Under the pieces are notes generated by a model. It was given only the letters and a program-made list of their open reading frames with translations. It was not told the origin of the DNA and searched no databases. Below are positions 29,501 through 60,300 of a stretch of 64,000 nucleotides of DNA, piece by piece. The position numbers and the translations under genes are program-made. Each line of letters begins with the position of its first letter. Position 1 is the stretch's first letter. The stretch is from the human T2T-CHM13v2.0 reference genome, Homo sapiens, in NCBI RefSeq assembly GCF_009914755.1, contig NC_060933.1, one strand, 5' to 3'.

Positions 29501-29880
29501 ATCAATCCGAATGTAATGGAATGGAATGGAATGGAATGGAAAGGAATGGAATGGAATGGAATGCAATGGAATGGAATCAACCCGAGTACAATGGAATGGA
29601 ATGGAATGGAATGGAATGGAATGGAATGGAATGGAATCAACCTGAGTGCAATGGAATGGAGTGGAATGGAATGGAATGGAATGGAACAACCCGAATGGAA
29701 TGGAATGTAATGGAGAGTAAGGGAGTTGAATAGAATCCATCCGAAAGTAAAGGAATGGAATGGAACGGAATGGAATGGAATGGAATGGAATGGAATGGAA
29801 TGCAATGGAATGGAATCAACCCGAGTACAATGGAATAGAATGGAATGGAATGGAATGGAATGGAATGGAATGGAATGGAA

Positions 29881-36600: not shown

Positions 36601-37865
36601 TAGAATGGAATGGAACGAAATGGAATGGAATGGAATGGAATGGAATGGAATGGAATGGAATGGAATGGAATGGAATGGAATCGTTCCAAGTGGAATAGGA
36701 GGGAATGTATTCGAGTGGAATGGAAAGGAATGGAATCAAACAGAGTGGAATGGAAGGGAATGGAATGGAATGGAAACTAATAGAGTGGAATCAACCCGAG
36801 TGGAATGGAATGGAATGGAATGGAATGGAAAGGAATTGAATGGAATGGAATGACTTCAAACCGAATGGAATGGAAAGGAATGGAATCAACACGAGTGGAA
36901 TGGAATGGAATGGAATGGAATGGAATGGAATGGAATCGTACGGAATAGAATGGAATGGAACGAAATGCAATGGAATGGAATGGAATGGAATGGAATGGAA
37001 TGGAATGGAAAGGAATGGAATCGTTCCGAGTGGAATAGGAGGGAATGTATTCGAGTGGAATGGAAAGGAATGGAATCAACCAGCGTGGAATGGAAGGGAA
37101 TGGAATGGAATGGAAACTAATAGAATGGAATCAACCCGAGAGGAATGGAATGGAAAGGACTGGAATGGAATGGAATGGAATGGAATTAACTCGATTGCAA
37201 TGGAATGGAATGGAATGGAAAGGAATAGAATGGAATCAACCTGAGTGGAATGGAATGGAAAGGACTGGAATGGAGTGGAATGAAATGGAATGGAATGGAA
37301 TGGAATCAACTCAATTGGAATGGAATGGAATGGAATGGAATGGAATGGAATGGAATGGAATGGAATTAACCCGAATAGAATGGAATGGAATGGAATGGAA
37401 AGGAATGGAATGGAATGGAATGGAATGGAATGGAATGGAATGGAATCAACCCGACTGCAGGGGAACGGAATGGAATGGAATGCAATGGAATGGAATCATC
37501 CGGAACGGAATGGAATGAAATGGAATTTAATCAATTCGATTGCAATGGAATGGAATGGAATGGAATGGAATGGAATGGAATTAACCCGAATAGAATGGAA
37601 TGGAATGGAATGGAATGGAAAGGAATGGAAGGGAATGGAATGGAATGGAATGGAATGGAATCAACCCGAGTGCAGGGGAATGGAATGGAATGGAATGCAA
37701 TGGAATGGAATCATCCGGAATGGAATGGAATGGAATGGAATGCAATCAACCCAATGCAATGGAATGGAGTGGAATGGAATGGAATGGAATGGAATGGAAT
37801 GGAATCAACTCGATTGCAATCGAATGGAATGGAATGGAATGGAATCAACTCGATTGCAATCGAAT
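33650..37865 (+). repeat. Direct duplication of a ~1.4-kb block (about 33650-35045 and 36460-37865), offset 2812-2817 bp
   Basis: Private markers GTACGAAATAG (33781/36593), CGTTCCAAGTGG (33865/36682), TAATAGAGTGG (33961/36778), TTTAATCAATTCG (34714/37526), CAATCAACCCAATGC (34931/37743). The ORFs 34264-34497 and 37076-37309 translate identically. Confidence 0.92.
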
Positions 37866-40800
37866 GGAATGGAATGGAATGGAATCAATCCGAGTGCAAT
37901 GGAATGGAGTGGAATGGAATGGAATGGAATGGAACAACCCGAATGGAATGGAATGTAATGGAGAGTAAGGGAGTTGAATAGAATCAATCCGAATGTAATG
38001 GAATGGAATGCAACGGAATGGAATGGAATGGAATGGAATGGAATGCAATGGAATGGAATCAACCTGAGTACAATGGAATGCAATGGAATGGAATGGAATG
38101 GAATGGAATGGAATGGAATGGAATGGAATGCCTTCACTCCGAATGGAATGGAAAGGAATGAAATCAACACGGGTGGAATGGAATGAAATGGAATGGAATG
38201 GAATGATACGGAATAGAATGGAATGGAACGAAATGGAATGGAATGGAATGGAATGGAATGGAATGGAATGGAATGGAATGGAATGGAATGGAATGGAATG
38301 GAATCGTTCCCAGTGGAATAGGATTGAATGTATTCGAGTGGAATGGAAAGGAATGGAATCAACCAGAGTGGAATGGAAGGGAATGGAATGAAATGGAAAC
38401 TAATAGAATGGAATCAACCCGAGTGGAATGGAATGGAAAGGACTGGAATGGAAAGGAATGGAATGGAATGGAATGGAATGGAATGGAATCAACGCGAGTG
38501 CAGGGGAATGGAATGGAATCGAATGGAATGGAATGGAATGGAATGGAATCAACCCGAGTGCAGGGGAATGTAATGGAACGGAATGCAATGGAATGGAATC
38601 ATCCAGAATGGAATGCAATGCAATGGAATGGAATCAACCCCAGTGCAATGGAATGGAGTGGAATGGAATGGAATGGAATGGAACAATCCGAATGGAATGG
38701 AATGTAATGGAGAGTAAGGGAGTTGAAAAGAATCAATCCGAATGGAATGGAATGGAACCGAATGGAATGGAATGGAATGGAATGGAATGGAATGGAATGG
38801 AATGGAATGCAATGGAATGGAATCAACCCGTGTACAATGGAATGGAATGGAATGGAATGGAATGGAATGGAATGGAATGGAATGATACGGAATAGAATGG
38901 AATGGAACGAAATGGAATGGAATGGAATGGAATGGAATGGAATGGAATGGAATGGAATCGTTCCGAGTGGAATAGGAGGGAATGTATTCGAGTGGAATGG
39001 AAAGGAATGGAATCAACCAGAGTGCAATGGAAGGGAATGGAATGGAATGGAAACTAATAGAATGGAATCAACCAGAGTGGAATGGAATGGAATGGAATGG
39101 AATCAACTCGATTGGAATGGAATGGAATGGAATGGAATGGAATGGAATGGAATTAACCCGAATAGAATGGAATGGAATGGAATGGAATGGAACGAAATGG
39201 AATGCAATGGAATGGAATGGAATGGAATGGAATGGAATGGAATGGAATCAACCCGAGTGCAGGGGAATGGAATGGAATGGAATGGAATGGAATGGAATGG
39301 AATGGAATGGAATGGAATCATCCGGAACGGAATGGAATGGAATGGAATGGAATCAACTGGATGGCAATGGAATGGAATGGAATGGAATGGAATGGAACCG
39401 AATGGAATGGAATGGAATTAACCGGAATAGAATGGAATGGAATGGAATGGAACGGAATGGAATGGAATGGAATGGAATGGAATGGAATGGAATGGAATGG
39501 AATCAACTCTATTGCAATCGAATGGAATGGAATGGAATTAACCAGAATAGAATGGAATGGAATGGAATGCAATGGAACGGAACGGAACGGAACGGAATGG
39601 AATGGAATGGAATGGAATGGAATGGAATGGAATGGCATGCAATGGAATCAACTGATTGCAATGGAATGGAATGGAATGGAATGGAATCAACCCGACTGCA
39701 GGGGAATGGAATGGAATGGAATGCAATGGAATGGATTCAACTTGAATGGAATGGAAAGCATGGAATCAACACGAGTGGAATGGCATGGATTGGAATGGAA
39801 TGGAATGGAATCAACCCGAGTACAGGGGAATGGAATGGAATGGAATGCAATGGAATGGAATCATCCGTAATGGAATGGAAAGGAATGGAATGGAATGGAA
39901 TGGAATGGAATGGAATGGAATGGAATGGAATCAACTCGATTGCAATCGAATGGAATGGAATGGAATTAACCCGAATAGAATGGAATGGAATGGAATGGAA
40001 TGGAACGGAACGGAACGGAATGGAATGGAATGGAATGGAATGGAATGGAAAGGAATGGAATGGAACGGAAGGGAATGGAATGGAATGGAATGGAATCAAC
40101 GCGAGTGCAGGGTAATGGAATGTAATGGAATGCAATGGAATGGAATCTTCCGGAATGGAATGGAATGGAATGGAATGGAATCAATCCGAGTGCAATGGAA
40201 TGGAGTGGAATGGAATGGAATGGAATGGAACAACCCGAATGGAATGGAATGTAATGGAGAGTAAGGGAGTTGAATAGAATCATTCCGAATGTAATGGAAT
40301 GGAATGGAACGGAATGGAATTGAATGGAATGGAATGGAATGCAATGGAATGGAATCAACCCGAGTGCAATGGAATGGAGAGGAATGGAATGGAATGGAAT
40401 GCAAACTACCCTAATAGAATGGAATGTAATGGAGTGTAAGGGAATTGAATAGAATCAATCCGAATATAATGGAATGTAATGGAATGGAATGGAATGGAAT
40501 GGAATGGAATGGAATGGAATCAACCCGAGTGCAATCGAATGGAATCGAATGGAATGCAATGCAATGGAATGGATTCAACTTGAATGGAATGGAAAGAATT
40601 GAATCAACACGAGTGGAATGGCATGGATTGGAATGGAATGGAATGGAATCAACACGAGTACAGGGGAATGGAATGGAATGGAATGCAATGGAATGGAGTC
40701 ATCCGTAATGGAATGGAAAGGAATGGAATGGAATGGAATGGAATGGAATGGAATCAACTCGATTGCAATCGAATGGAATGGAATGGAATTAACCCAAATA

Positions 40801-43800
40801 GAATGGAATGGAATGGAATGGAATGGAACGGAACGGAATGGAATGGAATGGAATGGAATGGAACGGAACGGAACGGAACGGAATGGAATGGAATGGAATG
40901 GAATGGAATCAACGCGAGTGCAGGGGAATGGAATGGAATGGAATGCAATGGAATGGAATCTTCCGGAATGGAATGGAATGGAATGGAATGGAATGGAATG
41001 GAATGGAATGGAATCAACCCGAGTGCAATGGAATGGAGTGGAATGGAATGGAATGGAATGGAACAACCCGAATGGAACAGAATGTAATGTAGAGTAAGGG
41101 AGTTGAATAGAATCAATCCGAATGTAATGGAATGGAATGGAACGGAATGGAATGGAATGGAATCGAATGGAATGCAATGGAATGGAATCAACCCGAGTTC
41201 AATGGAATGGAGGGGAATGGAATGGAATGGAATGAAAACTACCCGAATGGAATGGAATGTAATGGAGTGTAAGGGAATTGAATAGAATCAATCCTAATGT
41301 AATGGAATGGAATATAATGGAGTGTAAGGGAATTGAATAGAATCAATCCTAATGTAATGGAATGGAATGGAACGGAATGGAATGGAATGGAATGGAATGG
41401 AATGGAATGGAATGGAACGCAATGGAATGGAATCAACCCGAGTTCAATCGAATGGAATCGAATGGAATGGAATGCAATGGAATGGATTCAACTTGAATGG
41501 AATGGAAAGAATGGAATCAACACGAGTGGAATGGCATGGATTGGAATGGAATGGATTGGAATCAACCCGAGTACAGGGGAATACATTGGAATCGAATGCA
41601 ATGGAATGGAATCATCCGTAATGGAATGGAAAGGAATGGAATGGAATGGAATGGAATGGAATGGAATGGAATCAACTCGATTGCAATCGAATGGAATGGA
41701 ATGGAATTCACCCGAATAGAATGGAATGGAATGGAATGGAACGGAACGGAATGGAATGGAATGGAATGGAATGGAATGGAATGGAATGGAACGGAAAGGA
41801 AGGGAATGGAATGGAATAGAATGGAATGGAATGGAATCAACGCGAGTGCAGGGGAATGGAATGGAATGGAATGCAATGGAATGGAATATTCCGGAATGGA
41901 ATGGAATGGAATGGAATGGAATGGAATGGAATGGAATCAACCCGAGTGCAATGGAATGGAGTGGAATGGAATGGAATGGAATGGAACAACCCGAATGCAA
42001 TGGAATGTAATGGAGAGTTAGGGAGTTGAATAGAATCAATCCGAATGTAATTGAATGGAATGGAACAGAATGGAATTGAATGGAATGGAATGGAATGCAA
42101 TGGAATGGCATCAACCCGAGTGCAATGGAATGGAGAGGAATGGAATGGAATGGAATGGAAACTACCCGAATGGAATGGAATGGAATCAACCCGAGTACAG
42201 GGGAATGGAATGGAATGGAATGCAATGGAATGGAATCATCCGTAATGGAATGGAAAGGAATGGAATGGAATGGAATGGAATGGAATGGAATGGAATCAAC
42301 TCGATTGCAATCAAATGGAATGGAATGGAATTAACCCGAATAGAATGGAATGGAATGGAATGGAACGGAACGGAATGGAATGGAATGGAATGGAACGGAA
42401 CGGAATGGAATGTAATGGAATGGAATGGAATCAACGCGAGTGCAGGGGAATGGAATGGAATGGAATGCAATGGAATGGAATCTTCCGGAATGGAATGGAA
42501 TGGAATGGAATGGAATGAAATGCAATGGATTCAACTCGATTGCAATGGAATGGAATAGAATGGAATGGAATGGAATGGAATGGAATTAATCCGAATAGAA
42601 TGCAATGGAATGGAATGGAACGGAATGGAACGGAATGGAATGGAATGGAATGGAATGGAATGGAATGGAATGGAATGGTATGGAATGGAATGGAATGGTA
42701 CGGAATAGAATGGAATGGAACGAATTGTAATGCAATGGAATTGAATGGAATGGAATGGAATGGAATGGAATCAACGCGAGTGCAGGGGAATGCAATGGAA
42801 CGGAATGCAATGGAATGGAATCATCCGGAATGGAATGGAATGGAATGGAATCAACCCGAGTACAATGGAATGGAGTGGAATGGAATTGAATGGAATGGAA
42901 CAACCCGAATGGAATGTAATGTAATGGAGAGTAAGGGAGTTGAATAGAATCAATCCGAATGTAATGGAATGGAATGCAACGGAATGGAATGGAATGGAAT
43001 GGAATGCAATGGAATGGAATCAACCCGAGTACAATGGAATGGAATGGAATGGAATGGAATGATACGGAATAGAATGGAATGGAACGAAATGGAATGGAAT
43101 GGAATGGAATGGAATGGAATGGAATGGAATCGTTCCGAGTGGAATAGGAGGGAATGTATTCGAGTGGAATGGAAAGGAATGGAATCAACCAGAGTGGAAT
43201 GGAAGGGAATGGAATGGAATGGAAACTAATAGAATGGAATCAACCCGAGTGGAATGGAATGGAAAGGACTGGAATGGAATGGAATGGAATGGAATCAACT
43301 CGATTGTAATGGAATGGAATGGAATGGAATGGAATGGAATGGAATGGAATGGAATGGAATGGAATGGAATGGAGTGGAATGGAATTAACACGAATACAAT
43401 GGAAGGGAATGGAATGGAATGGAAACTAATAGAATGGAATCAACCCGAGTGGAATGGAATGGAAAGGACTGGAATGGAATGGAATGGAATGGAATCAACT
43501 CGATTGTAATGGAATGGAATGGAATGGAATGGAATGGAAAGGAATGGAATTAACCCCAATACAATGGAATGGAATGGAATGGAATGCAATGGAATGGAGT
43601 GGAATGAAATGGAATCAACCCGAGTGCAGGGGAATGGAATGGAATGGAATGCAATGGAATGGAATCATCCGGAATGGAATGGAATTTAATGGAATGCAAA
43701 GCAATGGAATCAACTCGATTGCAATGGAATGGAATGGAATGGAAAGGAATACATTGGAATCAACCCGAGTGGAATGGAATGGAAAGGACTGGAATGGAGT

Positions 43801-45019
43801 GGAATGGAATGGAATGCAATGGAATGGAATGGAATGGAATCAACTTGATTGGAATGGAATGGAATGGAATGGAATGGAATGGAATCAACCCGACTGCAGG
43901 GGAATGGAATGGAATGGAATGCAATGGAATGGATTCAACTTGAATGGAATGGAAAGAATGGAATCAACACGAGTGGAATGGCATGGATTAGAATGGAATG
44001 GAATGGAATCAACCCTAGTACAGGGGAATGGAATGGAATGGAATGCAATGGAATGGAATCATCCGTAATGGAATGGAAAGGAATGGAATGGAATGGAATG
44101 GAATGGAATGGAATGGAATCAACTCGATTGCAATCGAATGGAATGGAATGGAATTAACCCGAATAGAATGGAATGGAATGGAATGGAACGGAACGGAATG
44201 GAATGGAATGGAATGGAATGGAATGGAACGGAACAGAAAGGAATGGAATGGAATGGAATGGAATGGAATGGAATGGAATGGAATGGAATGGAATCAACCC
44301 GAGTGCAATGGAATGGAGTGGAATGGAATGGAATGGAATGGAACAACCCGAATGGAATGGAATGTAATGGAGACTAAGGGAGTTTAATAGAATCAATCCG
44401 AATGGAATGGAATGGAATGGAACGGAATGGAATTGAATGGAATGGAATGGAATGCAATGGAATGGAAACTTCCGGAATGGAATGGAAGGGAATGGAATGG
44501 AATGGAATGAAATGCAATGGATTCAACTCGATTGCAATGGAATGGAATAGAACGGAATGGAATGGAATGGAATGGAATTAATCCGAATAGAATGGAATGG
44601 AATGGAATGGGATTAACCTGAATAGAATGGAATGGAATGGAATGGAACGGAATGGAATGGAATGGAATGGAATGCAATGGAATGGAATGGAACGGAATGG
44701 AATGGTATGGAATGGAATGGAATGGTACGGAATAGAATGGAATGGAACGAATTGTAATGGAATGGAATTGAATGGAATGGAATGGAATGGAATGGAATCA
44801 ACGCGAGCGCAGGGGAATGTAATGGAACGGAATGCAATGGAATGGAATCATCAGGAATGGAATGGAATGGAATGGAATGGAATGGAATGGAATGGAATGG
44901 AATCAACCCGAGTGCAATGGAATGGAGTGGAATGGAATGGAATGCAATGGAACAACCCGAATGGAATGGAATGTAATGGAGAGTAAGGGAGTTGAATAGA
45001 ATCAATCGGAATGTAATGG

Positions 45020-46330
45020 AATGGAATGCAATGGAATGGAATGGAATGGAATCAACTCGAGTGGAAAGGAATGGAATGGAATGGAAAGGAATGGAATGAA
45101 ATCAACTCGAGTGGAATGGAATTGAATGGAATGGAATGGAATGGAATAGAAGGTAATGGAATCAACACGAGTGCAGGGGAATGGAATGGAATGGAATGCA
45201 ATGGAATGGAATCATCCGGAATGGAATGGAATGGAATGGAATCAACTCCATTGCAATGGAATGGAATTGAATGGAATGGAATAGAATGGAATGGAATTAA
45301 CCCGAATAGAATGGAATGCAATAGAATGGAATGGAACGGAACCGAATGGAGTGGAATGGAATGGAATGGAATCAACCTGAGTGCAGGGGAATGGAATGGA
45401 ATGGAATGCAATGGAATGGAATCATCCGGAATGGAATGGAATGGAATGGAATGGAATCAAACCGAGTGCAATGGAATGGAGTGAAATGGAATGGAATGGA
45501 ATGGAAACAACCAGAATGGATTGGAATATAATGGAGTGTTAGGGAATTGAATAGAATCAATCTGAATGTAATGAAATGGAATGGAACGGAATGGAATGGA
45601 ATGGAATGGAATCGAATGGAATGGAATGGAATGGAATCAACCCGAGTGGAATGGCATGGAATGGAATGCAATGGAATGGAATGGAATGGAATGGAATAGT
45701 TCGGAATAGAATGGATTGAAACAAAATGGAATGGAATGGAATGGAATGGAATGGAATGGAATAGAATGGAATGGAATGGAATCAAGTCGATTGCAGTGGA
45801 ATAGAATGGAATGGAATGGAACGGGTTGGAATGGAATGGAATGGAATGGAATGCAATTAAATGGAATGGAAAGGAATGGAATCAACCCGAGTGCAGGGGA
45901 AAGGAATGGAATGGAATGCAATGGAATGGAATGGAATGGAATGGAATGGAATGGAATGGAATCAACCCGAGTGGAATGGCATGGAATGGAATGCAAAGGA
46001 ATGGAATGGAATGGAATCAACTCGAGTGGAAAGGAATGGAATGGAATGGAAAGGAATGGAATGAAATCAACTCGAGTGGAATGGAATATAATGGAATGGA
46101 TTGGAATGGATTGCAATGGAATGAAATGGAATGGAATGGAATGGAATCAATCATTCCGAGTGGAATGGAAGGGAATGTAATGGAGTGGAAAGAAGGGAAT
46201 GGAATCAACCCGAGTGGCATGCAAGGCAATGGAATGGAATGGAAAGGAATGGAATGGAATCAACTCGATTGCAATCGCATGGAATGGAATGGAATGGAAT
46301 GGAAAGGAATGGAATGGAATGAAATGGGAT
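45020..46330 (+). repeat. Divergent HSat3 block with atypical motifs next to the breakpoint
   Basis: Paired CAACTCGAGTGG (CTCGAG at 45056/45106 and 46021/46071), AGAAGGTAATGG, ATAGTTCGG, CAAGTCGATTGCAGTGG, CAATCATTCCGAG and GGCATGCAAGGC are absent or very rare elsewhere in the window. Confidence 0.7.
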
Positions 46331-47194
46331 GGAATGGAATGCAATGGAATGGAATCAACCCGAGTGCAATCGAATGGAATCGAATGGAATGGAATGCAAT
46401 GGAATGGATTCAACTTGAATGGAATGGAAAGAATGGAATCAACACGAGTGGAATGGCATGGATTGGAATGGAATGGAATGGAATCAACCCGAGTACAGGG
46501 GAATGGAATGGAATGGAATGCAATGGAATGGAATCATCCGTAATGGAAAGGAAAGGAATGGAATGGAATGGAATGGAATGGAATGGAATGGAATCAACTC
46601 GATTGCAATCGAATGGAATGGAATGGAATTAACCCGAATAGAATGGAATGGAATGGAATGGAACGGAACGGAACGGAATGGAATGGAATGGAATGGAATG
46701 GAATGGAATGGAATGGAACGGAAAGGAATGGAATGGAATGGAATGGAATGGAATGGAATGGAATGGAATGGAATCAACGCGAGTGCAGGGGAATGGAATG
46801 TAATGGAATGTAATGGAATGGAATCTTCCGGAATGGAATGGAATGGAATGGAATCAACCCGAGTGCAATGGAATGGAGTGGAATGGAATGGAATGGAATG
46901 GAACAACCTGAATGGAATCGAATGTAATGGAGAGTAAGGGAGTTGAATAGAATCAATCCGAATGTAATGGAATGGAATGGAACGGAATGGAATTGAATGG
47001 AATGGAATGGAATGCAATGGAATGGAATCAACCCGAGTGCAATGGAATGGAGAGGAGGGGAATGGAATGGAGTGGAAACTACCCGAATGGAATGGAATGT
47101 AATGGAGTGTAAGGGAATTGAATAGAATCAATCCGAATGTAATGGAATGGAATGGAACGGAATGGAATGGAATGGAATGGAATGGAAAGAAGGG

Positions 47195-47222
47195 AATGGA
47201 ATCAACCCGAGTTGATTCCATT
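47195..47222. other. Satellite strand-inversion breakpoint: palindrome AATGGAATCAAC-CCGA-GTTGATTCCATT with 5-bp microhomology CGAGT (47208-47212)
   Basis: GGAAT switches abruptly to ATTCC. The left arm ends in CAACCCGAGT and the right arm read on - ends in CAAAGCAATGGAATCAACTCG, so both share CGAGT. Arms 47195-47206 and 47211-47222 are perfect reverse complements around a 4-nt spacer. Confidence 0.95.
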
Positions 47223-50200
47223 GCTTTGTATTCCGTTCCATTCCATTCCTTTTCATTGTATTCGGGGTAATTCCATTGCATTCCATTCCATTCCTTTCCA
47301 TTCCATTCCATTCCATTACAATGGAGTTGATTCCATTCCATTCCATTCCATTCCATTCCATTCCATTCTATTCCAGTCCTTTCCATTCCATTCCACTCGG
47401 GTTGATTCCATTCTATTAGTTTCCATTCCATTCCATTCCCTTCCATTGCACTCTGGTTGATTCCATTCCTTTCCATTTCACTCGAATACATTCCCTCCTA
47501 TTCCACTCGGAACGATTCCATTCCTTTCCATTCCATTCCATTCCATTCCATTCCATTCCATTCCATTCCATTCCATTTCGTTGCATTCCATTCCATTCCG
47601 TACCATTCCATTCCATTCCATTCCATTCCATTCGATTCCATTCCACTCGTGTTGATTACATTCCTTTCCATTCCATTCAGTTTGAAGGCATTCCATTCCA
47701 TTCAATTCCATTCCATTCCATTCCATTCCATTACATTACATTGTAGTCGGGTTGATTCCATTCCATTGCATTCTATTCCATTCCATTCCATTCCATTCCA
47801 TTCCATTCCATTCCATTCCGGATGATTCCATTCCATTGCATTCCATTCCATTCCATTCCCCTGCACTCGGGTTGATTACATTCCATTCCCTTCCCTTCCA
47901 TTCCTTTCCATTCCATTCCATTCCATTCTATTCGGGTGAATTCCATTCCATTCCATTCCATTCCATTCCATTCCATTCCATTGTAATCGAGTTGATTCCA
48001 TTACATTCCATTCCATTCCGTTCCGGATGATTCCATTCCATTGCATTCCATTCCATTCCATTCCCCTGCAGTCGGTTTGATTCCTTTCCATTCCATTCCA
48101 TTCCATTCCATTCTATTCCTTTCCGTTCCATTCCATTCCATTCCATTCTATTCGGGTTAATTCCATTCCATTCCTTTCCATTCCATTCCAATCGAGTTAA
48201 TTCCATTCCATTGCATTCCATTCCTCTCCATTCCAGTCCTTTCCATTCCATTCCACTCGGGTTGATTCCATTCTATTCCTTTCCATTCCATTCCATTGCA
48301 ATCGAGTTGATTCCATTGCATTGCATTCCATTCCATTCCATTCCGGATGATTCCATTCCATTGCATTCCATTCCATTCCATTCCCCTGCACTCGGGTTGA
48401 ATCCATTCCATTCCACTCCATTGCGTTTCATTGCATTCCATTCCATTTTATTCGGGTTAATTCCATTCCATTCTATTCCATTCCATTCCATTCCATTCCA
48501 TTACAATCGAGTTGATTCCATTCCATTCCATTCCATTCCATTCCATTCCATTCCATTCCATTCCATTCCATTCCATTCCATTCCACTCGTGTTGATTCCA
48601 TTCCTTTCTATTCCATTCGGTTTGAAGCCATTCCATCCCATTCAATTCCATTCCATTCCTTTCCATTCCATTTCGGATGATGCCATTCCATTGCTTTCCA
48701 TTCCATTCCATTCCCCTGTACTCAGGTTTATTCCATTCCATTCCATTGCAATCCATGCCATTCCACTCGTGTTGATTCCATTCTTTCCATTCCATTCAAG
48801 TTGAATCCATTCCAATGCATTCCATTCCATTCGATTCCATTGGATTTCACTCGGTTTGATTCCATGGCATTGCATTCCATTCTATTCCATTCCATTCCAT
48901 TCCATTCCATTCCTTTCTATTCCATTCCATTCCATTCGGATTCATTCTAATCAATTCCCTTACACTCCATTACATTACATTCCATTCGGGTAGTTTCCAT
49001 TCCATTCCATTCCATTCCATTCCTCTCCATTCCATTGCACACGGGTTGATTCCATTCCATTCCACTCCATTCCATTCCATTCCATTCCATTCCATTCCAT
49101 TCCGGATGATTCCATTCCATTGAATTCCATTCCATTCCATTCCCCTGCACTTGGGTTGATTCTATTCCATTCCATTCCTTTCTGTTCCATTCCATTCCAT
49201 TCCATTCCATTCTATTCGTGTTAATTCCATTCCATTCTATTCCATTCCATTCCATTGAAATCGAGTTGATTCCATTCCATTCCATTCCATTCCAGATGAT
49301 TCCATTCCATTGCATTCCATTCCATTCCATTCCCCTGCACTCGGGTTGATTCCATTCCATTCCATTCCATTCCATTCCGTTCCATTCTGTTCCATTCCAT
49401 TCTATTCGGGTTAATTCCATTCCATTCCATTCCAGTCCTTTCCATTCCATTCCACTCGGGTTGATTCCATTCTATTCCTTTCCATTCTGTTCCATTCCAT
49501 TGCAATCGAGTTGATTCCATTCGAGTTGAATCCATTCCATTCCATTCCATTCCATTCCATTCCATTGAACACGGGTTCATTCCATTCCATTCCATTCCAT
49601 TCCATTCCATTTCATTGCATTCCATTCTATTCCATACCATTCCATTCCATCCCATTCCATTCCGTTCCATTCCATGCCATTACACTCGGGTTGATTCCAT
49701 TCCTTTCCATTCCATTGTTGTTGAATCCATTCCATTCCATTCCATTCCATTCGAATCCATTCCATTGCACTCGGGTTGATTCCATTCGATTCCATTCCAT
49801 TTCATTTCATTCCATTCCATTCCATTACATTCGGATTGATTCTATTCAATTCCCTTACACTCCATTACATTCCATTCCATTCGGGATGTTTCCATTCCAT
49901 TCCATTCCATTCCACTCCATTCCATTGCATCAGGTTGATTGCATTCCATTCCATTCCATTCCATTCCATTCCATTCCGGATGATTCCATTCCATTGCATT
50001 CCATTCCATTCCATTCCCCTGCACTCGGGTTGATTCCATTCCATTCCATTCCATTCCATTCCATTCCATTCCATTCCGTTCCGTTCCGTTCCGTTCCATT
50101 CCACTCCATTCCAATCCATTCCATTCTATTCGGGTTAATTCCATTCCATTCCATTCGTGTTGATCCATTCCATTCCATTCCATTCCACTCCATTCCATTG

Positions 50201-50546
50201 CACTCGGGTTGATTCCATTCCATTCCATTCCATTCCGGATGATTCCATTCCATTGCATTTCGTTCCATTACATTCCCCTGCACTCGCGTTGATTCCATTC
50301 CATTCCATTCAATTCCATTCCATTACAATTCGTTCCATTCCATTCTATTCCGTACCATTCCATTCCATTCCATACCATTCCATTCCATTCCCTTCCATTC
50401 CATTCCGTTCCATTCCGTTCCATTGCATTCCATTCCATTCTATTCGGGTTAATTCCATTCCATTCCATTCCATTCCATTCTATTCCATGCCATTGCAATC
50501 GAGTTGAATCCATTGCATTTCATTCCATTCCATTCCATTCCATTCC

Positions 50547-50561
50547 ATTCCGGAAGATTCC
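50547..50561 (-). promoter_or_regulatory. Perfect heat-shock element (ATTCCGGAAGATTCC), first of ~12 copies in the inverted domain
   Basis: Reverse complement of the element above. Other starts: 51360, 53223, 55884, 56784, 57099, 57414, 58252, 60140, 60789 (GGAACATTCC variant), 63430, 63860. Confidence 0.6.
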
Positions 50562-53500
50562 ATTCCATTGCATTCCATTCCATTCCATTCCCCTGCACTC
50601 GCGTTGATTCCATTCCATTCCATTCCATTCCATTCCGTTCCGTTCAGTTCCGTTCCATTCCATTCGATTCCATTCCGTTCCGTTCCATTCCATTCCATTC
50701 CATTCCATTCTATTTGGGTTAATTCCATTCCATTCCATTCGATTGCAATCGAGTTGATTCCATTCCGTTCCATTCCATTCCTTTCCATTCCATTACGGAT
50801 GATTCCATTCCATTGCATTCCATTCCATTCCATTCCCCTGTACTCGGGTTGATTCCATTCCATTCCATTCCAATCCATGCCATTCCACTCGTGTTGATTC
50901 CATTCTTTCCATTCCATTCAAGTTGAATCCATTCCATTGCATTCCATTCCATTCGATTCCATTCGATTGCACTCGGGTTGATTCCATTCCATTGCATTCC
51001 ATTCCATTCCATTTCATTCCATTCCATTCCATTCCGTTCCATTCCATTCCATTACATTCGGATTGATTCTATTCAATTCCCTTACACTCCATTACATTCC
51101 ATTCCATTCGGGTAGTTTCCCTTCCATTCCATTCCATTCTTCTCCATTCCATTGCACTCGGGTTGATTCCATTCCATTGCATTCCATTCCATTCCATTCA
51201 ATTCCATTCCGTTCCATTCCATTCCATTACATTCGGATTGATTCTATTCAACTCCCGTACTCTCCATTACATTCGATTCCATTCGGGTTGTTCCATTCCA
51301 TTCCATTCCATTCCACTCCATTCCATTGCACTCGGGTTGATTCCATTCCATTCCATTCCATTCCGGAAGATTCCATTCCATTGCATTCCATTACATTCCA
51401 TTCCCCTGCACTCGCGTTGATTCCATTCCATTCCATTCCATTCCATTCCATTCCATTCCGTTCCGTTCCATTCCATTCCATTCCATTCCATTCCATTCCG
51501 TTCCGTTCCATTCCGTTCCATTCCATTCCATTCCATTCTATTCGGGTTAATTCCATTCCATTCCATTCCATTGAAATCGAGTTGATTCCTTTCCATTCTA
51601 TTCCATTCCATTCCATTCCATTCCATTCCTTTCCATTCCATTACGGATGATTCCATTCCATTGCATTCCATTCCATTCCATTCCCCTGTACTCGGGTTGA
51701 TTCCATTCCATTCCATTGCAATCCATGCTATTCCACTCGTGTTGATTCCATTCTTTCCATTCCATTCAAGTTGAATCCATTCCATTGCATTCCATTCCAT
51801 TCCATTCCCCTTCAGTCGGGGTGATTCCATTCCATTCCATTCCATTCCATTCCATTCCATTCCTTTCCTTTCCATTTAATTCCATTCCATTCTATTCGGG
51901 TTAATTCCATGCCATTGCATTCCATTCCATTCCATTCCATTCCATTCCATTCCAATCGAGTTGATTCCATTCCATTCCATTCCATTCCATTCCACTCCAT
52001 TCCAGTCCTTTCCATTCCATTCCACTCGGGTTGATTCCAATGTATTCCTTTCCATTCCATTCCATTCCATTGCAATCGAGTTGATTCCATTGCTTTGCAT
52101 TCCATTCCATTCCATTCCGGATGATGCCATTCCATTGCATTCCATTCCATTCCATTCCCCTGCACTCGGGTTGATTCCATTCCATTCCACTCCATTCCGT
52201 TCCATTCCATTCCATTCCGTTGTATTCGGGTTAATTCCATTCCATTCCACTCAATTCCATTCCATTCCAATCCATTACAATCGAGTTAATTCCATTCCAT
52301 TCCATTCCATTCCATTCCATTCCATTCCAGTCATTTCCATTCCATTCCACTCGGGTTGATTCCATTCTATTAGTTTCCATTCCATTCCATTCCCTTCCAT
52401 TCCACTCTGGTTGATTCCATTCCTTTCCATTCCACTCGAATACGTTCCCTCCTATTCCACTCTGAACGAATCCATTCTATTCCATTCCATTCCATTCCAT
52501 TTCGTTCCATTCCTTTCTATTCCGTACCATTCCATTCCATTCCATTCCTTTCCATTCCATTCCATTCCACTCGTGTTGATTCCATTCCTTTCCATTCCAT
52601 TCGGTTTGAAGGCATTCCAATCCATTCCATTCCATTCCATTCCATTCCATTCCATTCCATTCCATTCCATTGTACTCGGGTTGATTCCATTCCATTGCAT
52701 TCCATTCCATTCCATTCCATTCCATTCCGTTGCATTCCATTCCATTACATTCGGATTGATTCTATTCAACTCCCTTACTCTCCATTCCATTCCATTCCAT
52801 TCGGGTTGTTCCATTCCATTCCATTCCATTCCACTCCATTCCATTGCACTCGGGTTGATTCCATTCCATTCCATTCCATTCCATTCCGGATGATTCCATT
52901 CCATTGCATTCCGTTCCATTACATTCCCCTGCACTCGCGTTGATTCCATTCCATTCCATTCCATTCCATTCAATTCCATTCCATTACAATTCGTTCCATT
53001 CCATTCTATTCCGTGCTATTCCATTCCATTCCATACCATTCCATTCCATTCCATTCCATTCCATTCCATTCCATTCCATTCCATTCCGTTCCATTCCGTT
53101 CCATTCCATTCCATTCCATTCTATTCGGGTTAATTCCATTCCATTCCATTCCATTCCATTCTATTCCATTCCATTGCAATCGAGTTGAATCCATTGCATT
53201 TCATTCCATTCCATTCCATTCCATTCCGGAAGATTCCATTCCATTGCATTCCATTCCATTCCATTCCCCTACACTCGCGTTGATTCCATTCCATTCCATT
53301 CCATTCCATTCTGTTCCGTTCCGTTCCGTTCCATTCCATTCCATTCCATTCCATTCAATTCCGTTCCGTTCCATTCCATTCCATTCCATTCTATTTGGGT
53401 TAATTCCATTCCATTCCATTCGATTGCAATCGAGTTGATTCCATTCCATTCCATTCCATTCCATTCCTTTCCATTCCATTACGGATGATTCCATTCCATT

Positions 53501-56500
53501 GCATTCCATTCCATTCCATTCCCCTGTACTCGGGTTGATTCCATTCCATTCCATTCCAATCCATGCCATTCCACTCGTGTTGATTCCATTCTTTCCATTC
53601 CATTCAAGTTGAATCCATTCCATTGCATTGCATTCCATTCGATTCCATTCAATTGCACTCTTGTTGATTCCATTCCATTCCATTCCATTCCATTCCATTC
53701 CATTCCATTCCGTTCCATTCCATTCCATTACATTCAGATTGATTCTATTCAATTCCCTTACACTCCATTACATTCCATTCCATTCGGGTAGTTTCCATTC
53801 CATTCCATTCCATTCCTCTCCATTCCATTGCACTCGGGTTGATTCCATTCCATTGCATTCCATTCCATTCCATTCAATTCCATTCCGTTCCATTCCATTC
53901 CATTACATTCGGAATGATTCTATTCAACTCCCTTACTCTCCATTACATTCCATTCCATTCGGGTTGTTCCATTCCATTCCATTCCATTCCACTCCATTCC
54001 ATTGCACTCGGGTTGATTCCATTCCATTCCATTCCATTCCATTTCGGAAGATTCCATTCCATTGCATTCCATTACATTCCATTCCCCTGCACTCGCGTTG
54101 ATTCCATTCCATTCCATTCCATTCCATTCCGTTCCTTTCCGTTCCATTCCATTCCATTCCATTCCATTCCATTCCGTTCCGTTCTTTTCCGTTCCATTCC
54201 ATTCTATTCCATTCTATTCGGGTTAATTCCATTCTATTCCATTTGATTGCAATCGAGTTGATTCCCTTCCATTCTATTCCATTCCATTCCATTCCATTCC
54301 ATTCCTTTCCATTCCATTACGGATGATTCCATTCCATTGCATTCCATTCCATTCCATTCCCCTGTACTCGGGTTCATTCCATTCCATTCCATTCCAATCC
54401 ATGCCATTCCACTCGTGTTGATTCCATTCTTTCCATTCCATTCAAGTTGAATCCATTCCATTGCATTCCATTCCATTCCATTCCCCTGCAGTAGGGTTGA
54501 TTCCATTCCATTCCATTCCATTCCATTCCATTCCATTCCATTCCATTGCATTTCATTCCTTTCCGTTCCATTTAATTCCATTCCATTCTATTCGGGTTAA
54601 TTCCATTCCATTCCATTCCATTCCATTCCATTCCATGCCATTCCAATCGAGTTGATTCCATTCCATTCCATTCCATTCCATTCCAGTCCTTTCCATTCCA
54701 TTCCACTCGGGTTGATTCCAATGAATTCCTTTCCATTCCATTCCATTCCATTGCAATCGAGTTGATTCCATTGCTTTGCATTCCATTCCATTCCATTCCA
54801 TTCCGGATGATTCCATTCCATTGCATTTCATTCCATTCCATTCCATTCCCCTGCACTCGGGTTGATTCCATTCCATTCCACTCCATTCCGTTCCAATCCA
54901 TTCCCTTCCATTGTATTTGGGTTAATTCCATTCCATTCCATTCCATTCCATTCCATTCCATTCCATTCCATTGCATTACAATCGAGTTGATTGCATTCCA
55001 TTCCATTGCATTCCATTCCATTCCATTCCATTCCAGTCCTTTCCATTCCATTCCACTCGGGTTGATTCCATTCTATTAGTTTCCATTCCATTCCATTCCC
55101 TTCCATTCCACTCTGGTTGATTCCATTCCTTTCCAATCCACTCGAATACATTCCCTCCTATTCCACTCGGAACGATTCCATTCCATTCCATTCCATTCCA
55201 TTCCATTCTATTCCATTCCATTTCTTTCCATTCCATTCTATTCCATACCATTCCATTCCATTCGATTGCATTCCATTACATTCCTTCCCATTCCATTCTT
55301 GTTGATTCCATTCCTTTCCATTCCATTCGGTTTGAAGCCATTCCATTCCATTCCATTCCATTCCATTCCATTCCATTCCATTCCATTCCATTGTACTCGG
55401 GTTGATTCCATTCAATTGCATTCCATTCCATTCCATTCCATTCCGTTCCATTCCATTCCATTACATTCGGATTGATTCTATTCAACTCCCTTACTCTCCA
55501 TTACATTCCATTCCATTCTGGTTGTTCCATTCCATTCCATTCCATTCCACTACATTCCATTGCACTCGGGTTGATTCCATTCCATTCCATTCCATTCCAT
55601 TCCATTCCATTCCGCATGATTCCATTCCATTACCTTCTGTTCCATTACATTTCCCTGCACTCGCTTTGATTCCATTCCATTCCATTCCATTCCCCACCAT
55701 TCCATTCCATTCCATTCCATTCCATTCCATTCCATTCCATTCCATTCCGTTCCGTTCCGTTCCATTCCGTTCCATTCCATTCCATTCTATTCGGGTTAAT
55801 TCCATTCCATTCCATTCCATTCCATTCTATTCCATTCCATAGCAATCGAGTTGAATCCATTGCATTCCATTCCATTGAATTCCATTCCGGAAGATTCCAT
55901 TCCATTGCATTCCATTACATTCCATTCCCCTGCACTCGTTTTGATTCCATTCCATTCCATTCCATTCGGATTCATTCTATTCAATTCCCTTACACTCCAT
56001 TACATTCCATTCGATTCGTGTAGTTTCCATTCCATTCCATTCCATTCCTCTCCATTCCATTGCACTCGGGTTGATTCCATTCCATTCCATTCCATTCCGG
56101 GTGATTCCATTCCATTGAATTCCATTCCATTCCATTCCCCTGCACTTGGGTTGATTCCATTCCATTCCATTCCATTCCTTTCTGTTCCATTCAATTCCAT
56201 TCCATTCCATTCTATTCGTGTTAATTCCATTCCATTGTATTCCATTCCATTCCATTGAAATCGAGTTGATTCCATTCCATTTCATTCCATTCCATTCCAT
56301 TCCATTCCGTTCCATTCAGGATGATTCCTTTCCATTGTATTCCATTCCTTTCCATTCCCCTGCACTCGGGTTGATTCCATTCCATTCCATTACATTACAT
56401 TCCATTCCATTCCGATCCATTTCATTCTATTCGGGTTAATTCCATTCCATTCCATTCCACTCCATTCCAGTCCTTTCCATTCCATTCCACTCGGGATGAT

Positions 56501-57180
56501 TCCATTCTATTCCTTTCAATTCCATTCCATTCCATTGCAATCCAGTTGATTCCATTCGAGTTGAATCCATTCCATTCCATTCCATTGCACACGGGTTCAT
56601 TCCATTCCATTCCATTCCATTCCATTCCATTCCATTCCATTTCATTCCATTCCATTCTATTCCGTACCATTCCATTCCATCCCATTCCATTCCGTTCCAT
56701 TCCATACAATTACACTCGGGTTGATTCCATTCCTTTCCATTCAATTCTTGTTGAATCCATTCCATTCCATTCCATTCCATTCCTTTCCGGAAGATTCCAT
56801 TCCATTGCATTCCATTACATTCCATTCCCCTGCACTGGCGTTGATTCCATTCCATTCCATTCAATTCCATTCCATTACAATTCGTTCCATTCCATTCTAT
56901 TCCGTACCATTCCATTCCATTCCATACCATTCCATTCCATTCCATTCCATTCCATTCCGTTCCATTCCGTTCCATTCCATTCCATTCCATTCTATTCGGG
57001 TTAATCCCATTCCATTCCATTCCATAGCATTCTATTCCATTCCATTGCAATCGAGTTGAATCCATTGCATTTCATTCCATTCCATTCCATTGCATTCCAT
57101 TCCGGAAGATTCCATTCCATTGCATTCCATTACATTCCAATCCCCTGCACTCGCGTTGATTCCATTCCATTCCATTCCAT

Positions 57181-57305
57181 TCCGTTCCGTTCCGTTCCGT
57201 TCCGTTCCGTTCCATTCCATTCCATTCCGTTCCGTTCCGTTCCGTTCCGTTCCGTTCCATTCCATTCCATTCCATTCCATTCCGTTCCGTTCCGTTCCGT
57301 TCCGT
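57181..57305 (-). repeat. (GGAAC)n / (CCGTT)n CpG-rich variant cluster
   Basis: Three runs of 6, 6 and 5 TCCGT units give 17 CpGs in 125 bp. Confidence 0.85.
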
Positions 57306-60300
57306 TCCATTCCATTCCATTCCATTCTATTCGGGTTAATTCCATTCCATTCCACTCGATTGCAATCGAGTTGATTCCATTCCATTCCATTCCATTCCAT
57401 TCCATTCCATTTCATTCCGGAAGATTCCATTCCATTGCATTCCATTCCTTTCCATTCCCCTGCACTCACGTTGTTTCCATTCCATTCCATTCCATTCCGT
57501 TCCGTTCCGTTCCATTCCATTCCATTCCCTTCCATTCCGTTCCGTTCCGTTCCATTCCATTCCATTCCATTCTATTCGGGTTAATTCCATTCCATTCCAT
57601 TCGATTGCAATCGTGTTGATTCCATTCCATTCCATTCCATTCCATTCCATTCCATTCCTTTCCATTCCATTACGGATGATTCCATTCCATTGCATTCCAT
57701 TCCATTCCATTCCCCTGTACTCGGGTTGATTCTATTCCATTGCATTCCAATCCATGGCCTTCCAATTGTGTTGATTCCATTCTTTCCATTCCATTCAAGT
57801 TGAATCCATTCCATTGCATTCCATTCCATTCGATTCCATTCGATTGCACTCGGGTTGATTCCATTCCATTGCATTCCATTCCATTCCATTCCATTCCGTT
57901 CCATTCCATTCCATTACATTCGGATTGATTCTATTCAATTCCCTTACTCTCCATTACATTCCATTCCATTCGGGTAGTTTCCATTCCATTCTATTCCATT
58001 CCTCTCCATTCCATTGCACTCGGGTTGATTCCATTCCATTGCATTCCATTCCATTCCATTCCATTCCATTCCGTTCCATTCCATTCCATTACATTCGGAT
58101 TGATTCTATTCAACTCCCTTACTCTCTATTACATTCCATTCCATTCGGGCTGTTCCATTCCATTCCATTCCATTCCACTCCAATCCATTGCATTCGGGTT
58201 TATTCCATTCCATTCCATTCCATTCCATTCCATTCCATTCCATTCCATTCCATTCCGGAAGATTCCATTCCATTGCATTCCATTCCATTCCATTCCCCTG
58301 CACTCGCGTTGATTCCATTCGATTCCATTCCATTCCATTCCATTCCATTCCATTCCTTTCCGTTCCATTCCATTCCATTCCATTCCATTCCGTTCCGTTC
58401 CGTTCCACTCCATTCCATTCCATTCTATTCGGGTTAATTCCATTCCATTCCATTCGATTGCAATCGAGTTGATTCCATTCCATTCCATTCCATTCCATTC
58501 CATTCCTTTCCATTCCATTACGGATGATTCCATTCCATTGCATTCCATTCCATTCCATTCCCCTGTACTCGGGTTCATTCCATTCCATTCCATTCCAATC
58601 CATGCCATTCCACTCGTGTTGATTCCATTCTTTCCATTCCATTCAAGTTGAATCCATTCCATTGCATTCCATTCCATACCATTCCCCTGCAGTCGGGTTG
58701 ATTCCATTCCATTCCATTCCATTCCATTCCATTCCATTCCATTCCGTTCCGTTCCGTTCCGTTCCATTCCATTCCATTCCATTCTATTCGGGTTAATTCC
58801 ATTCCATTCCATTGCATTCCATTCCATTCCAATCGAGTTGATTCCATTCCATTCCATTCCATTCCATTCCATTCCATTCCACTCCATTCCAGTCCTTTCC
58901 ATTGCATTCCACTAGGGTTGATTCCAATGTATTCCTTTCCATTCCATTCCATTCCATTGCAATCGAGTTGATTCCATTGCTTTGCATTCCATTCCATTCC
59001 ATTCCATTTCAATCGAGTTGATTCCATTGCTTTGCATTCCATTCCATTCCATTCCATTCCGGATGATTCCATTCCATTGCATTCCATTCCATTCCATTCC
59101 CCTGCACTCGGGTTGATTCCATTCCATTAAACTCCATTACGTTCCATTCCATTCCATTCCGTTGTATTCGGGTTAATTCCATTCCATTCCACTCCATTCC
59201 ATTCCATTCCATTCCAATCGAGTTGATTCCATTCCATTCCATTCCATTCCATTCCATTCCATTCCAGTCCTTTCCATTCCATTCCACTCGGGTTGATTCC
59301 ATTCTATTAGTTTCCATTCCATTCCATTCCCTTCCATTCCACTCTGGTTGATTCCATTCCTTTCCATTCCACTCGAATACATTCCCTCCTATTCCACTCG
59401 GAACGATTCCATTCCATTCCATTCCATTCCATTCCATTCCATTCCATTCCATTTCGTTCCATTCCATTCTATTCCGTATCATTCCATTCCATTCCATTCC
59501 ATTCCATTCCATTCCATTCCATTCCACTCGTGTTGATTCCATTCCTTTCCATTCCATTCGGTTTGAAGACATTCCATTCCATTCCATTCCATTCCATTCC
59601 ATTGTACACGGGTTGATTGCATTCCATTGCATTCCATTCCATTCAATTCCGTTGCATTCCATTCCATTACATTCGGATTGATTCTGTTCAACTCCCTTAC
59701 TCTCCATTACATTCCATTCCATTCGGGTTGTTCCATTCCATTCCATTCCATTCCACTCCATTCCATTGCACTCGGGTTGATTCCATTCTATTCCATTCCA
59801 TTCCATTCCATTCCATTCCATTCCGGATGATTCCATTCCATTGCATTCCGTTCCATTACATTCCCCTGCACTCGCGTTGATTCCATTCCATTCCATTCAA
59901 TTCCATTCCATTACAATTCGTTACATTCCATTCTATTCCGTACCATTCCATTCCATTCCATACCATTCCATTCCATTCCATTCCATTCCATTCCGTTCCA
60001 TTCCGTTCCATTGCATTCCATTCCATTGTATTCGGGTTAATTCCATTCCATTCCATTCCATTCCATTCTATTCCATTCCATTGCAATCGAGTTGAGTCCA
60101 TTGCATTCCATTCCATTCCATTCCATTCCATTCCATTCCATTCCGGAAGATTCCATTCCATTGCATTCCATTCCATTCCATTCCCCTGCACTCGCGTTGA
60201 TTCCATTCCATTCCATTCCGTTCCGTTCCATTCCATTCCATTCCATTCCATTCCATTCCGTTCCTTTCCATTCCATTCCATTCCATTCTATTCGGGTTAA

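What the first reader, a model, noticed from the sequence alone, without database searches (positions are those of the whole stretch)
47195..47222. Inversion breakpoint formed by fusing two satellite words that are partly each other's reverse complement
Seen: the array flips strand inside CAACCCGAGTTG. The left arm supplies CAACCCGAGT and the right arm supplies the reverse complement of CAACTCG (CGAGTTG). They overlap by exactly 5 bp (CGAGT), with no inserted foreign DNA. The product is a 12-bp-arm palindrome with a 4-nt loop, one base from the perfect palindrome CAACTCGAGTTG. Established: pure GGAAT and ATTCC share almost no same-strand homology, and short junction microhomology is typical of MMEJ or replication template switching. 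Inference: two of the commonest interrupting words act as built-in inversion joints, so independent HSat3 inversions should reuse this junction. That could help explain the many strand switches reported in the chr9 HSat3 array.
Basis: partly seen in the sequence, partly recalled or inferred. Interest (0 to 1): 0.8.

Follow-up and report, generated by a model that had tools for sequence, protein, structure and literature searches.

The report
One satellite inversion joint, copied 47 times
The strand flip in this chromosome 9 satellite is a real joint made at five shared bases, but it formed once and was then copied about 47 times as the array grew, so it is not a joint that separate inversions keep reusing.

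Summary
At 47203-47214 the HSat3 array flips from GGAAT to ATTCC inside CAACCCGAGTTG. There is a 5-bp overlap (CGAGT), no inserted DNA, and a palindrome with 12-bp arms and a 4-nt loop.

Intact paralogs confirm both parent words. A 5-bp overlap is rare for random head-to-head joins in this array (P about 0.0015).

The inference of independent reuse fails. The 22-mer junction occurs 44 times in the assembly, plus 3 one-base variants, all on chr9 between 51.07 and 75.68 Mb. All 46 copies I fetched share the same left and right unit types.

Seventeen copies have a near-identical twin (0-1 mismatch) 8.7-10.6 Mb away, inside the published 9qh+ duplication of CHM13. No other junction of this design exists on any chromosome.

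I placed 195 strand switches on chr9. Five junction families account for 188 of them (96%). So the "over 200 inversion breakpoints" look like about a dozen founder events carried along by duplication.

Four founder families break inside CAACCCG-type words (post hoc P about 0.016), and pure GGAAT repeats offer no inverted 3-mers.

The parts
1..47202 (+). GGAAT-orientation (G-rich) arm of the HSat3 array, left of the junction word
   Evidence: GC skew is +0.56 to +0.69 in all 1-kb bins. GGAAT occurs 5368 times and ATTCC 6 times.
47195..47206 (+). Left arm of the 12-bp palindrome (AATGGAATCAAC)
   Evidence: Read directly. It pairs with 47211-47222 in the DNA fold.
47203..47212 (+). Left parent word CAACCCGAGT, the last bases contributed by the G-rich arm
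   Evidence: Intact paralogs continue GCAAT after CAACCCGAGT. The 834 intact copies of the longer left word on chr9 continue with a base other than T.
47207..47210 (.). 4-nt loop CCGA of the palindrome. It holds a CpG that has decayed to TG in two twin copies elsewhere.
   Evidence: The variants are at chr9 58,699,701 and 69,324,481.
47208..47212 (.). 5-bp microhomology CGAGT, assignable to either parent
   Evidence: The left parent matches through T47212. The right parent matches back to C47208 and then has T where the junction has C. The chance of 5 bp or more is 0.0015.
47208..47214 (-). Right parent word: the reverse complement of CAACTCG, the first bases contributed by the C-rich arm
   Evidence: 11 of 11 local paralogs and 17 of 17 genome-wide intact copies read TCGAGTTG here.
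47211..47222 (+). Right arm of the 12-bp palindrome (GTTGATTCCATT)
47215..64000 (-). ATTCC-orientation (C-rich) arm of the array. It continues for at least a further 10 kb beyond the window.
   Evidence: GC skew is -0.56 to -0.67. In locus L070, every 1-kb chunk of the extended right arm finds its best match on the minus strand of the left arm.

Best explanation
This is one copy of a single old head-to-head junction, which I call family J, in the chromosome 9 HSat3 array.

How it formed (inferred). A DNA end or nascent strand ended in ...GGAATCAACCCGAGT. It was joined to, or primed on, the reverse complement of a ...GGAATCAACTCG... unit through the five shared bases CGAGT. This points to microhomology-mediated end joining or a replicative template switch. 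The sequence cannot tell these two apart.

The palindrome. It is a by-product of joining two related words, each preceded by GGAAT units, in the same phase.

How it spread (shown). The junction then travelled as a passenger when blocks of tens to hundreds of kb were duplicated, directly and inside later inversions. Finally it was copied by the multi-megabase 9qh+ duplication of CHM13. There are now at least 47 copies, 28 in one orientation and 19 in the other.

The same holds for the other strand switches. About a dozen founder junctions, amplified, give the more than 200 switches of this array.
For: Anatomy and parents:
- The overlap is 5 bp with no filler.
- It is rare by chance: P(5 bp or more) = 0.0015 in 200000 random joins.

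Copies:
- There are 44 exact 22-mers, all on chr9, with 0 control hits.
- Two more are CpG-to-TpG variants and one is a G-to-C variant.
- 46 of 46 fetched copies show the same flanks on both sides.
- The 47th shows the same roughly 30 nt on each side in the search row.

Why the shared flanks matter:
- Only about 6 of 178 CAACCCGAGT words in the window share the left flank over 600 bp at 90% identity or more.
- Only 11 of the 138 CAACTCG words outside the junction share the right-flank context.
- Repeated independent choice of the same pair is therefore very unlikely.

Duplication:
- 17 copies at 52.13-59.66 Mb each have a twin 8.69-10.63 Mb away. Fifteen pairs match at 800 of 800 bases, one at 799 of 800 and one at 795 of 795.
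- The order and spacing of junction families repeats between the two blocks.

Other families, each found on chr9 only:
- T1 has 82 copies.
- K has 27 exact copies plus one variant.
- M has 20.
- T2 has 11.
- 188 of the 195 placed switches belong to five families.

Population data: the number of strand switches scales with chr9 HSat3 array length, r = 0.90 (APG preprint, passages). That is what passenger copying predicts.
Against: - Flank divergence alone does not set J copies apart from intact parent units. The closest intact right parents (L043, L044) differ from J right flanks by a median of 2.9-3.1%, against 1.8% among J copies. One intact left paralog differs by a median of 2.3%, against 2.8% among J copies. 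Single origin therefore rests on the shared pair of unit types, the identical breakpoint and the twin pattern. It does not rest on a resolved tree.
- Twin identity is partly built into the assembly. The published graph walk uses the same nodes twice.
- I could not look at reads.
- The pattern tool states that its counts for repeats are lower bounds.
- At least 24 further switches are needed for strict alternation and were not placed in a family. One of them was later sequenced as T3.
- The joining mechanism is inferred from the junction sequence only.
Confidence: 0.85

Rival explanations
1. Recurrent built-in joint. The two words act as a preferred inversion joint, and the 47 copies include many independent events that hit the same 5-bp overlap.
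For: - CGAGT and ACTCG both occur often on one strand, 335 and 144 times in the window, so many partner pairs exist.
- Intact parents of both types are still present in the array.
Against: - 46 of 46 fetched copies use the same left and the same right unit type, although each type is only a small share of the eligible words.
- No junction of this design was found on any other chromosome or with any other spacer.
- CGAGT/ACTCG is only fifth among inverted 5-mer pairs, with a 7% share. Longer inverted words exist, such as the 8-bp palindrome ATTGCAAT, present 100 times.
Confidence: 0.03
2. Local fold-back inverted duplication. A broken or stalled strand folded back nearby, so that the right arm began as a reverse-complement copy of the adjoining left arm, as in breakage-fusion-bridge cycles.
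For: - The junction is head-to-head with a short palindrome and microhomology, as fold-back junctions are.
- The best match of the last 600 bp of the left arm lies inverted on the right arm, 16 kb away, at 96.3% identity.
Against: - No collinear anti-diagonal was found. I compared 1-kb chunks of 26.8 kb of right arm (window plus L070) with 47 kb of left arm. The sum of matched coordinates stays constant for at most about 1.5 kb, and identity is at most 95.8%.
- Beyond the 12-bp arms the two sides diverge at once.
- The right flank's best inverted match in the left arm is 89.8%.
Confidence: 0.07
3. Blunt end joining, with the 5-bp overlap arising by coincidence.
For: Other founder junctions in the same array are blunt or nearly so: H3 and T3 have 0 bp, H2 and H6 have 1 bp, and M has a 4-6 nt filler.
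Against: - P(5 bp or more) is 0.0015 per join.
- Two further large families also show 4 bp: K with TGCA and T1 with CCGT. The chance of 4 bp or more is 0.0069 per join.
Confidence: 0.04
4. Assembly artefact or chimeric fold-back read built into the assembly.
For: - The region needed a manual two-pass graph walk.
- I could not inspect reads.
Against: - The same junction recurs 47 times in both orientations. Copies differ by a median of 1.8-2.8% in their flanks and carry their own point variants.
- Switch types alternate along 27 Mb, apart from 24 adjacent pairs that imply unplaced junctions.
- Other assemblies also show about 129 to hundreds of switches in this array.
Confidence: 0.01

Closest known systems
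Strand switches ('inversion breakpoints') of the chr9 HSat3B5 array. Sources: Altemose et al. preprint 10.1101/2021.07.12.452052; HPRC 2026 preprint 10.64898/2026.09.03.749043; APG 2026 preprint 10.64898/2026.07.22.740206. I saw passages only.
   Same: This junction is one of those switches. My minimum count of 219 for CHM13 agrees with the published 'over 200'.
   Different: The passages I saw count switches. They describe them as randomly distributed, stochastic by-products of array expansion. They do not give junction sequences. Here the switches resolve into a few junction families, each with a fixed breakpoint. Their supplements, which may hold coordinates or junction analyses, were not open to me.
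[quoted passage not shown] Source: Nurk et al. preprint 10.1101/2021.05.26.445798, passages only.
   Same: It explains the 17 twin pairs of J copies, the 8.7-10.6 Mb offsets, and the repeated order of junction families.
   Different: That duplication is only the last step. J was already present in at least about 29 copies, in both orientations, before it.
Microhomology-mediated end joining, and replicative template switching (FoSTeS/MMBIR). These are named from my own knowledge, not from a call.
   Same: There is a short overlap shared by both parents, no long homology and no filler. The overlap is longer than chance allows.
   Different: Nothing here shows the enzymes or a replication context. 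There is no templated insertion or multi-step complexity at this junction. The event is old and is seen only as its product.
Fold-back inversions of breakage-fusion-bridge type. Named from my own knowledge.
   Same: The joint is head-to-head, with a short palindrome at the centre.
   Different: The arms are not reverse-complement copies of each other beyond 12 bp.

Membership tests
HSat3 strand switch on chr9 | An abrupt flip from GGAAT-rich to ATTCC-rich sequence inside the array, with no foreign DNA | tested here: met
Microhomology-mediated junction (MMEJ or template switch) | A short overlap at the breakpoint that is present in both parental sequences | tested here: met
   CGAGT, 5 bp. The parents were inferred from intact paralogs.
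Microhomology-mediated junction (MMEJ or template switch) | An overlap longer than expected for random joins in the same sequence | tested here: met
   P(5 bp or more) = 0.0015 in 200000 simulated joins.
Microhomology-mediated junction (MMEJ or template switch) | No extended homology between the partners at the breakpoint, which excludes homologous recombination between inverted repeats | tested here: met
   The parents differ immediately outside the overlap, and the arms diverge beyond 12 bp.
Microhomology-mediated junction (MMEJ or template switch) | Dependence on the relevant repair or replication machinery | not testable with these tools
   Only the sequence product is available.
Fold-back inverted duplication | The two arms are reverse complements of each other over kilobases, with at most a short spacer | tested here: not met
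   No collinear inverted match was found over 26.8 kb against 47 kb.
Recurrent inversion hotspot | The same breakpoint found with different flanking unit types, or on other arrays | tested here: not met
   46 of 46 fetched copies share both flanks. All 46 sites matching the generic pattern are on chr9 and are this family.
Junction propagated by segmental duplication | Copies share the breakpoint and both flanks, and sit in repeated larger blocks | tested here: met
   There are 17 twin pairs with 0-1 mismatch in about 800 bases. The order and spacing of junction families repeats.
Assembly artefact | No reads span the junction | not testable with these tools
   No read data were available.

The most novel reading that the evidence does not exclude

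Pure (GGAAT)n has no inverted 3-mers. Microhomology-driven strand flips can therefore start only in the interrupting words. The commonest word, CAACCCGAGTGCAATGG, would then be the preferred site.

Four founder families have a breakpoint in its first 13 bases:
- J, after CGAGT
- K, after TGCA
- H4, after CCGA
- T1, in a CCGTGTGC variant

That is 4 of 20 breakpoint sides in 5% of the array. The binomial P is 0.016, but the test is post hoc and the census is incomplete.

There is a corollary. The mosaic of more than 200 switches at 9q12 would descend from about a dozen such events. Junction families could then serve as lineage markers for reconstructing how the 9qh block grew and varies among people.
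Probability: 0.3. Interest if true: 0.6.

Novelty: new member of a known kind. Interest (0 to 1): 0.42.

Why it matters
The chr9 HSat3 block is the largest satellite array in the human genome. It varies greatly in size among people and is known to be riddled with strand switches. If nearly all those switches are inherited copies of about a dozen founder junctions, three things follow.

- The number of actual inversion events is an order of magnitude lower than the breakpoint count suggests.
- The reported correlation of switch number with array length has a simple cause.
- Each junction family becomes a ready-made marker of 20-30 nt. Such markers could trace duplication history, compare haplotypes and check assemblies of this region.

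For the finding as given, the main message is a correction. A striking microhomology junction seen many times is not evidence of a hotspot until copies by descent are excluded.

Tried and rejected
1. J and T1 as the two ends of one inversion that split the same word copy. The retained parts of the word overlap (J keeps it up to ..CCGAGT; T1 keeps it from CCGTGT..). However, the T1 word-bearing arm matches the window at only about 83%, and not next to the paralogs of the J left flank. I dropped this as unsupported.

2. Fold-back origin. It was tested and not supported.

3. Symmetric palindrome between J(+) at 54,611,550 and J(-) at 54,779,508. The intervening switch lies at about 54,755,090, not at the midpoint. 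It is a blunt CATTC|GGAAT join, which I call T3.

4. Monophyly of J copies by flank divergence. It could not be resolved, because intact parents are as close to J copies as J copies are to each other.

5. An unbiased census by tiling 600 kb next to the window was not possible. I used targeted small stretches instead. The family census therefore depends on patterns that need clean pentamers within 60 nt of the switch, and its listings were cut at about 100 rows.

I replaced it with anchored pairwise alignment.

7. Earlier findings of this scan were not open.

8. Literature. Five searches and passages of six papers showed no junction-level family analysis of chr9 HSat3. These include Altemose Tables S6 and S7, HPRC Supplementary Fig. 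10 and APG Supplementary Fig. 10, and they may hold such data. I did not read the journal version of Altemose et al.

Full report
**The observation**

The window is a chr9 HSat3 array with a single strand switch. GC skew is +0.56 to +0.69 in every 1-kb bin up to 47000 and -0.56 to -0.67 from 48001 onward. GGAAT occurs 5368 times to the left of 47203 and once to the right; ATTCC occurs 6 and 1860 times.

The switch lies inside CAACCCGAGTTG at 47203-47214. The finding's coordinates, 47195-47222, are exactly AATGGAATCAAC / CCGA / GTTGATTCCATT. That is a palindrome with 12-bp arms and a 4-nt loop. As single-stranded DNA, 47185-47232 folds at -12.7 kcal/mol, z = -6.4, and 0 of 200 shuffles fold as well.

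CAACCCGAGT (130) and CAACTCG (102) are the two commonest classes among the 444 CAAC words of the left arm.

**The parents and the overlap**

The closest long paralogs of the left flank run through CAACCCGAGT and continue GCAAT. Long paralogs of the right flank first suggested a CAACCCGAGT parent. The local context decides otherwise:
- Of 12 matches to the first 24 bases of the right flank (at most 1 mismatch), 1 is the junction itself. The other 11 read ...TCGA before GTTG.
- Genome-wide, the intact form of the right flank occurs 17 times, always with T before CGAGTTG.
- The intact form of the left word occurs 834 times and continues with a base other than T.

The left parent therefore matches through T47212, and the right parent matches back to C47208. 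The overlap is CGAGT, with no filler.

In 200000 simulated head-to-head joins of this array, the overlap was 0 bp in 64%, 1 bp in 22% and 2 bp in 11%. It was 3 bp or more in 2.5%, 4 bp or more in 0.69%, and 5 bp or more in 0.15%.

**Is the junction reused?**

The 22-mer GGAATCAACCCGAGTTGATTCC occurs 44 times in the assembly. All copies are on chr9 between 51,074,572 and 75,682,206, 27 on one strand and 17 on the other, with 0 control hits.

The generic design GGAATCAAC, 0-14 nt of any sequence, GTTGATTCC has 46 sites. These are the 44 above plus two CpG-to-TpG variants, and none lies on another chromosome. One further G-to-C variant lies at about 53,784,330.

I fetched +/-1.5 kb around 46 copies. 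All 46 show the same left flank (...GGAAAGAAGGGAATGGAATCAACCCGAGT) and the same right flank (TGATTCCATTGCTTTG.ATTCCGTTCC...TTTTCATTGTATTCGGGTTAATTCC), with scattered private substitutions.

Both unit types are small minorities of the eligible words. About 6 of 178 CAACCCGAGT words in the window share the left flank over 600 bp at 90% identity or more. Eleven of the 138 CAACTCG words outside the junction share the right context. Independent events would therefore have produced different flanks. None did.

**How the copies arose**

Within +/-400 bp, the 46 copies differ by a median of 2.8% (left) and 1.8% (right) in aligned columns.

Seventeen copies at 52.13-59.66 Mb each have a twin 8.69-8.80 Mb or 10.57-10.63 Mb downstream. 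Fifteen pairs match at 800 of 800 bases, one at 799 of 800 and one at 795 of 795. The copy in this window pairs with 60,833,054.

[quoted passage not shown] That duplication was assembled by walking a graph loop twice (passages). Part of the twin identity is therefore built into the assembly.

Spacings between junctions differ between the two blocks: 112.9 against 114.1 kb, 264.0 against 244.0 kb, an extra 51.6-kb repeat, and an extra stretch of about 1.8 Mb. The blocks are thus not simple duplicates of each other.

Before that last step the junction already existed in about 29 copies, in both orientations.

**The other strand switches**

Gapped pentamer patterns and targeted fetches revealed further junction families. 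Each has a fixed breakpoint, and each occurs on chr9 only.

| Family | Direction | Junction | Overlap | Copies |
|---|---|---|---|---|
| K | G to C | CAACCCGAGTGCA\|TTCCATTGCATTCTGG | TGCA, 4 bp | 27 exact + 1 variant |
| M | G to C | GGAAT-AAAC-CCATTCCGTTCC | none; 4-6 nt filler | 20 |
| T1 | C to G | CCATTGCACACGG\|AATGG | CCGT, 4 bp, taking the CAACCCGTGTGCAATGG variant seen in the window as parent | 82 |
| T2 | C to G | CCATTAC\|GGAATGG | 3-5 bp | 11 |

Small families are H2 (2 copies), H3 (2 copies; blunt, a perfect palindrome), H4 (1 copy; CAACCCGA|TTCCGTTCC), H6 (1), T4 (1) and T3 (a blunt CATTC|GGAAT join, copy number unknown).

I placed 195 switches. Five families (J, K, M, T1, T2) hold 188 of them, or 96%. 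Alternation of G-to-C and C-to-G switches holds along the array except at 24 adjacent pairs. At least 219 switches must therefore exist. That agrees with 'over 200 inversion breakpoints' (Altemose et al. preprint, passages).

Other assemblies carry about 129 switches per chr9 haplotype (HPRC preprint, passages). Switch number correlates with array length at r = 0.90 (APG preprint, passages). Passenger copying predicts exactly that. The APG passage reads the switches as randomly placed by-products of expansion. The junction sequences say they are mostly inherited copies.

**Mechanism**

What is shown: the overlap, the absence of filler, the absence of long homology, and the copying.

What is inferred: the founder join was microhomology-mediated, either by end joining or by a replicative template switch.

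A local fold-back is not supported. I compared 26.8 kb of right arm (window plus L070) with 47 kb of left arm. No collinear inverted match longer than about 1.5 kb or better than 95.8% appeared. J copies, by contrast, are 97-98% alike.

The founder spectrum is mixed. Overlaps are 5, 4, 4 and 3-5 bp in the four large families J, K, T1 and T2. They are 0-1 bp, or filler, in M, H2, H3, H6 and T3. More than one joining route has therefore acted.

None of the five 3-mers of GGAAT has its reverse complement among them. Any overlap of 3 bp or more must therefore use variant words.

Four founder families (J, K, H4, T1) have a breakpoint within the first 13 bases of a CAACCCG-type word. Such words cover 5.0% of the array, and 4 of 20 sides gives a binomial P of 0.016. 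This test is post hoc and rests on an incomplete, pattern-biased census, so I treat it as a lead.

Against a specific CGAGT joint: that pair ranks fifth among inverted 5-mers, with a 7% share. Longer inverted words are not used by any family seen, such as ATTGCAAT, which occurs 100 times.

**Limits**

- No reads were available, and no other human or ape assemblies.
- The pattern tool states that its counts are lower bounds, and its listings are cut at about 100 rows.
- A contiguous tile of the array could not be fetched.
- Flank divergence does not by itself separate J copies from intact parents.
- Supplements of the preprints were closed. I saw only passages of the papers cited.

**Verdict**

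The main added value is the founder-and-amplification picture.

Noticed in passing
chr9 52.13-59.66 Mb against 60.83-70.29 Mb (loci L002-L017 and L059 against L018-L049 and L060): Seventeen junction copies have twins with 0-1 mismatch in about 800 bases, at offsets of 8.69-8.80 Mb and then 10.57-10.63 Mb. The order of junction families repeats between the blocks. This is the published 9qh+ duplication of CHM13. The jump in offset implies an extra stretch of about 1.8 Mb in the second copy, near 63.4-65.2 Mb.
   Followed up: partly
chr9 52,936,692-52,975,696 and its twin at 61,676,469-61,715,463: A two-junction block (K, then T1 17.8 kb later, then K 3.4 kb later, then T1 17.8 kb later) looks like a local tandem duplication with a 21.2-kb period that carries two strand switches.
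   Followed up: no
chr9 56,042,128 and 66,645,596 (locus L065): Head-to-head junction H3 is a blunt join that forms a perfect palindrome, GAATGG|CCATTC, with no spacer. This differs from the microhomology junctions.
   Followed up: partly
chr7 58,746,840; 58,757,542; 58,995,521; 59,010,660: The chr7 HSat3 region has its own head-to-head junction family, GGAAT|TGATTCC, in four copies as two inverted pairs. Its right breakpoint lies inside the reverse complement of a GGAATCAAC word.
   Followed up: no
window, both arms read in the G-rich orientation: The 8-bp palindrome ATTGCAAT occurs 100 times, within CAACTCGATTGCAAT.. words. It is the longest frequent inverted homology in the array, yet none of the junction families seen uses it.
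   Followed up: no
chr9 58,699,701 and 69,324,481 (L059, L060); chr9 about 53,784,330: The CpG in the 4-nt loop of the junction has decayed to TpG in one twin pair. Another copy carries CGACT instead of CGAGT. These point variants mark sub-lineages of the junction family.
   Followed up: partly
window 63056-63641, minus strand: The closest intact paralog of the last 600 bp of the left arm (96.3% identity) lies inverted on the right arm, 16 kb from the junction. It is better than any paralog on the left arm itself, where the best is 91.9%. The reason is not explained.
   Followed up: partly
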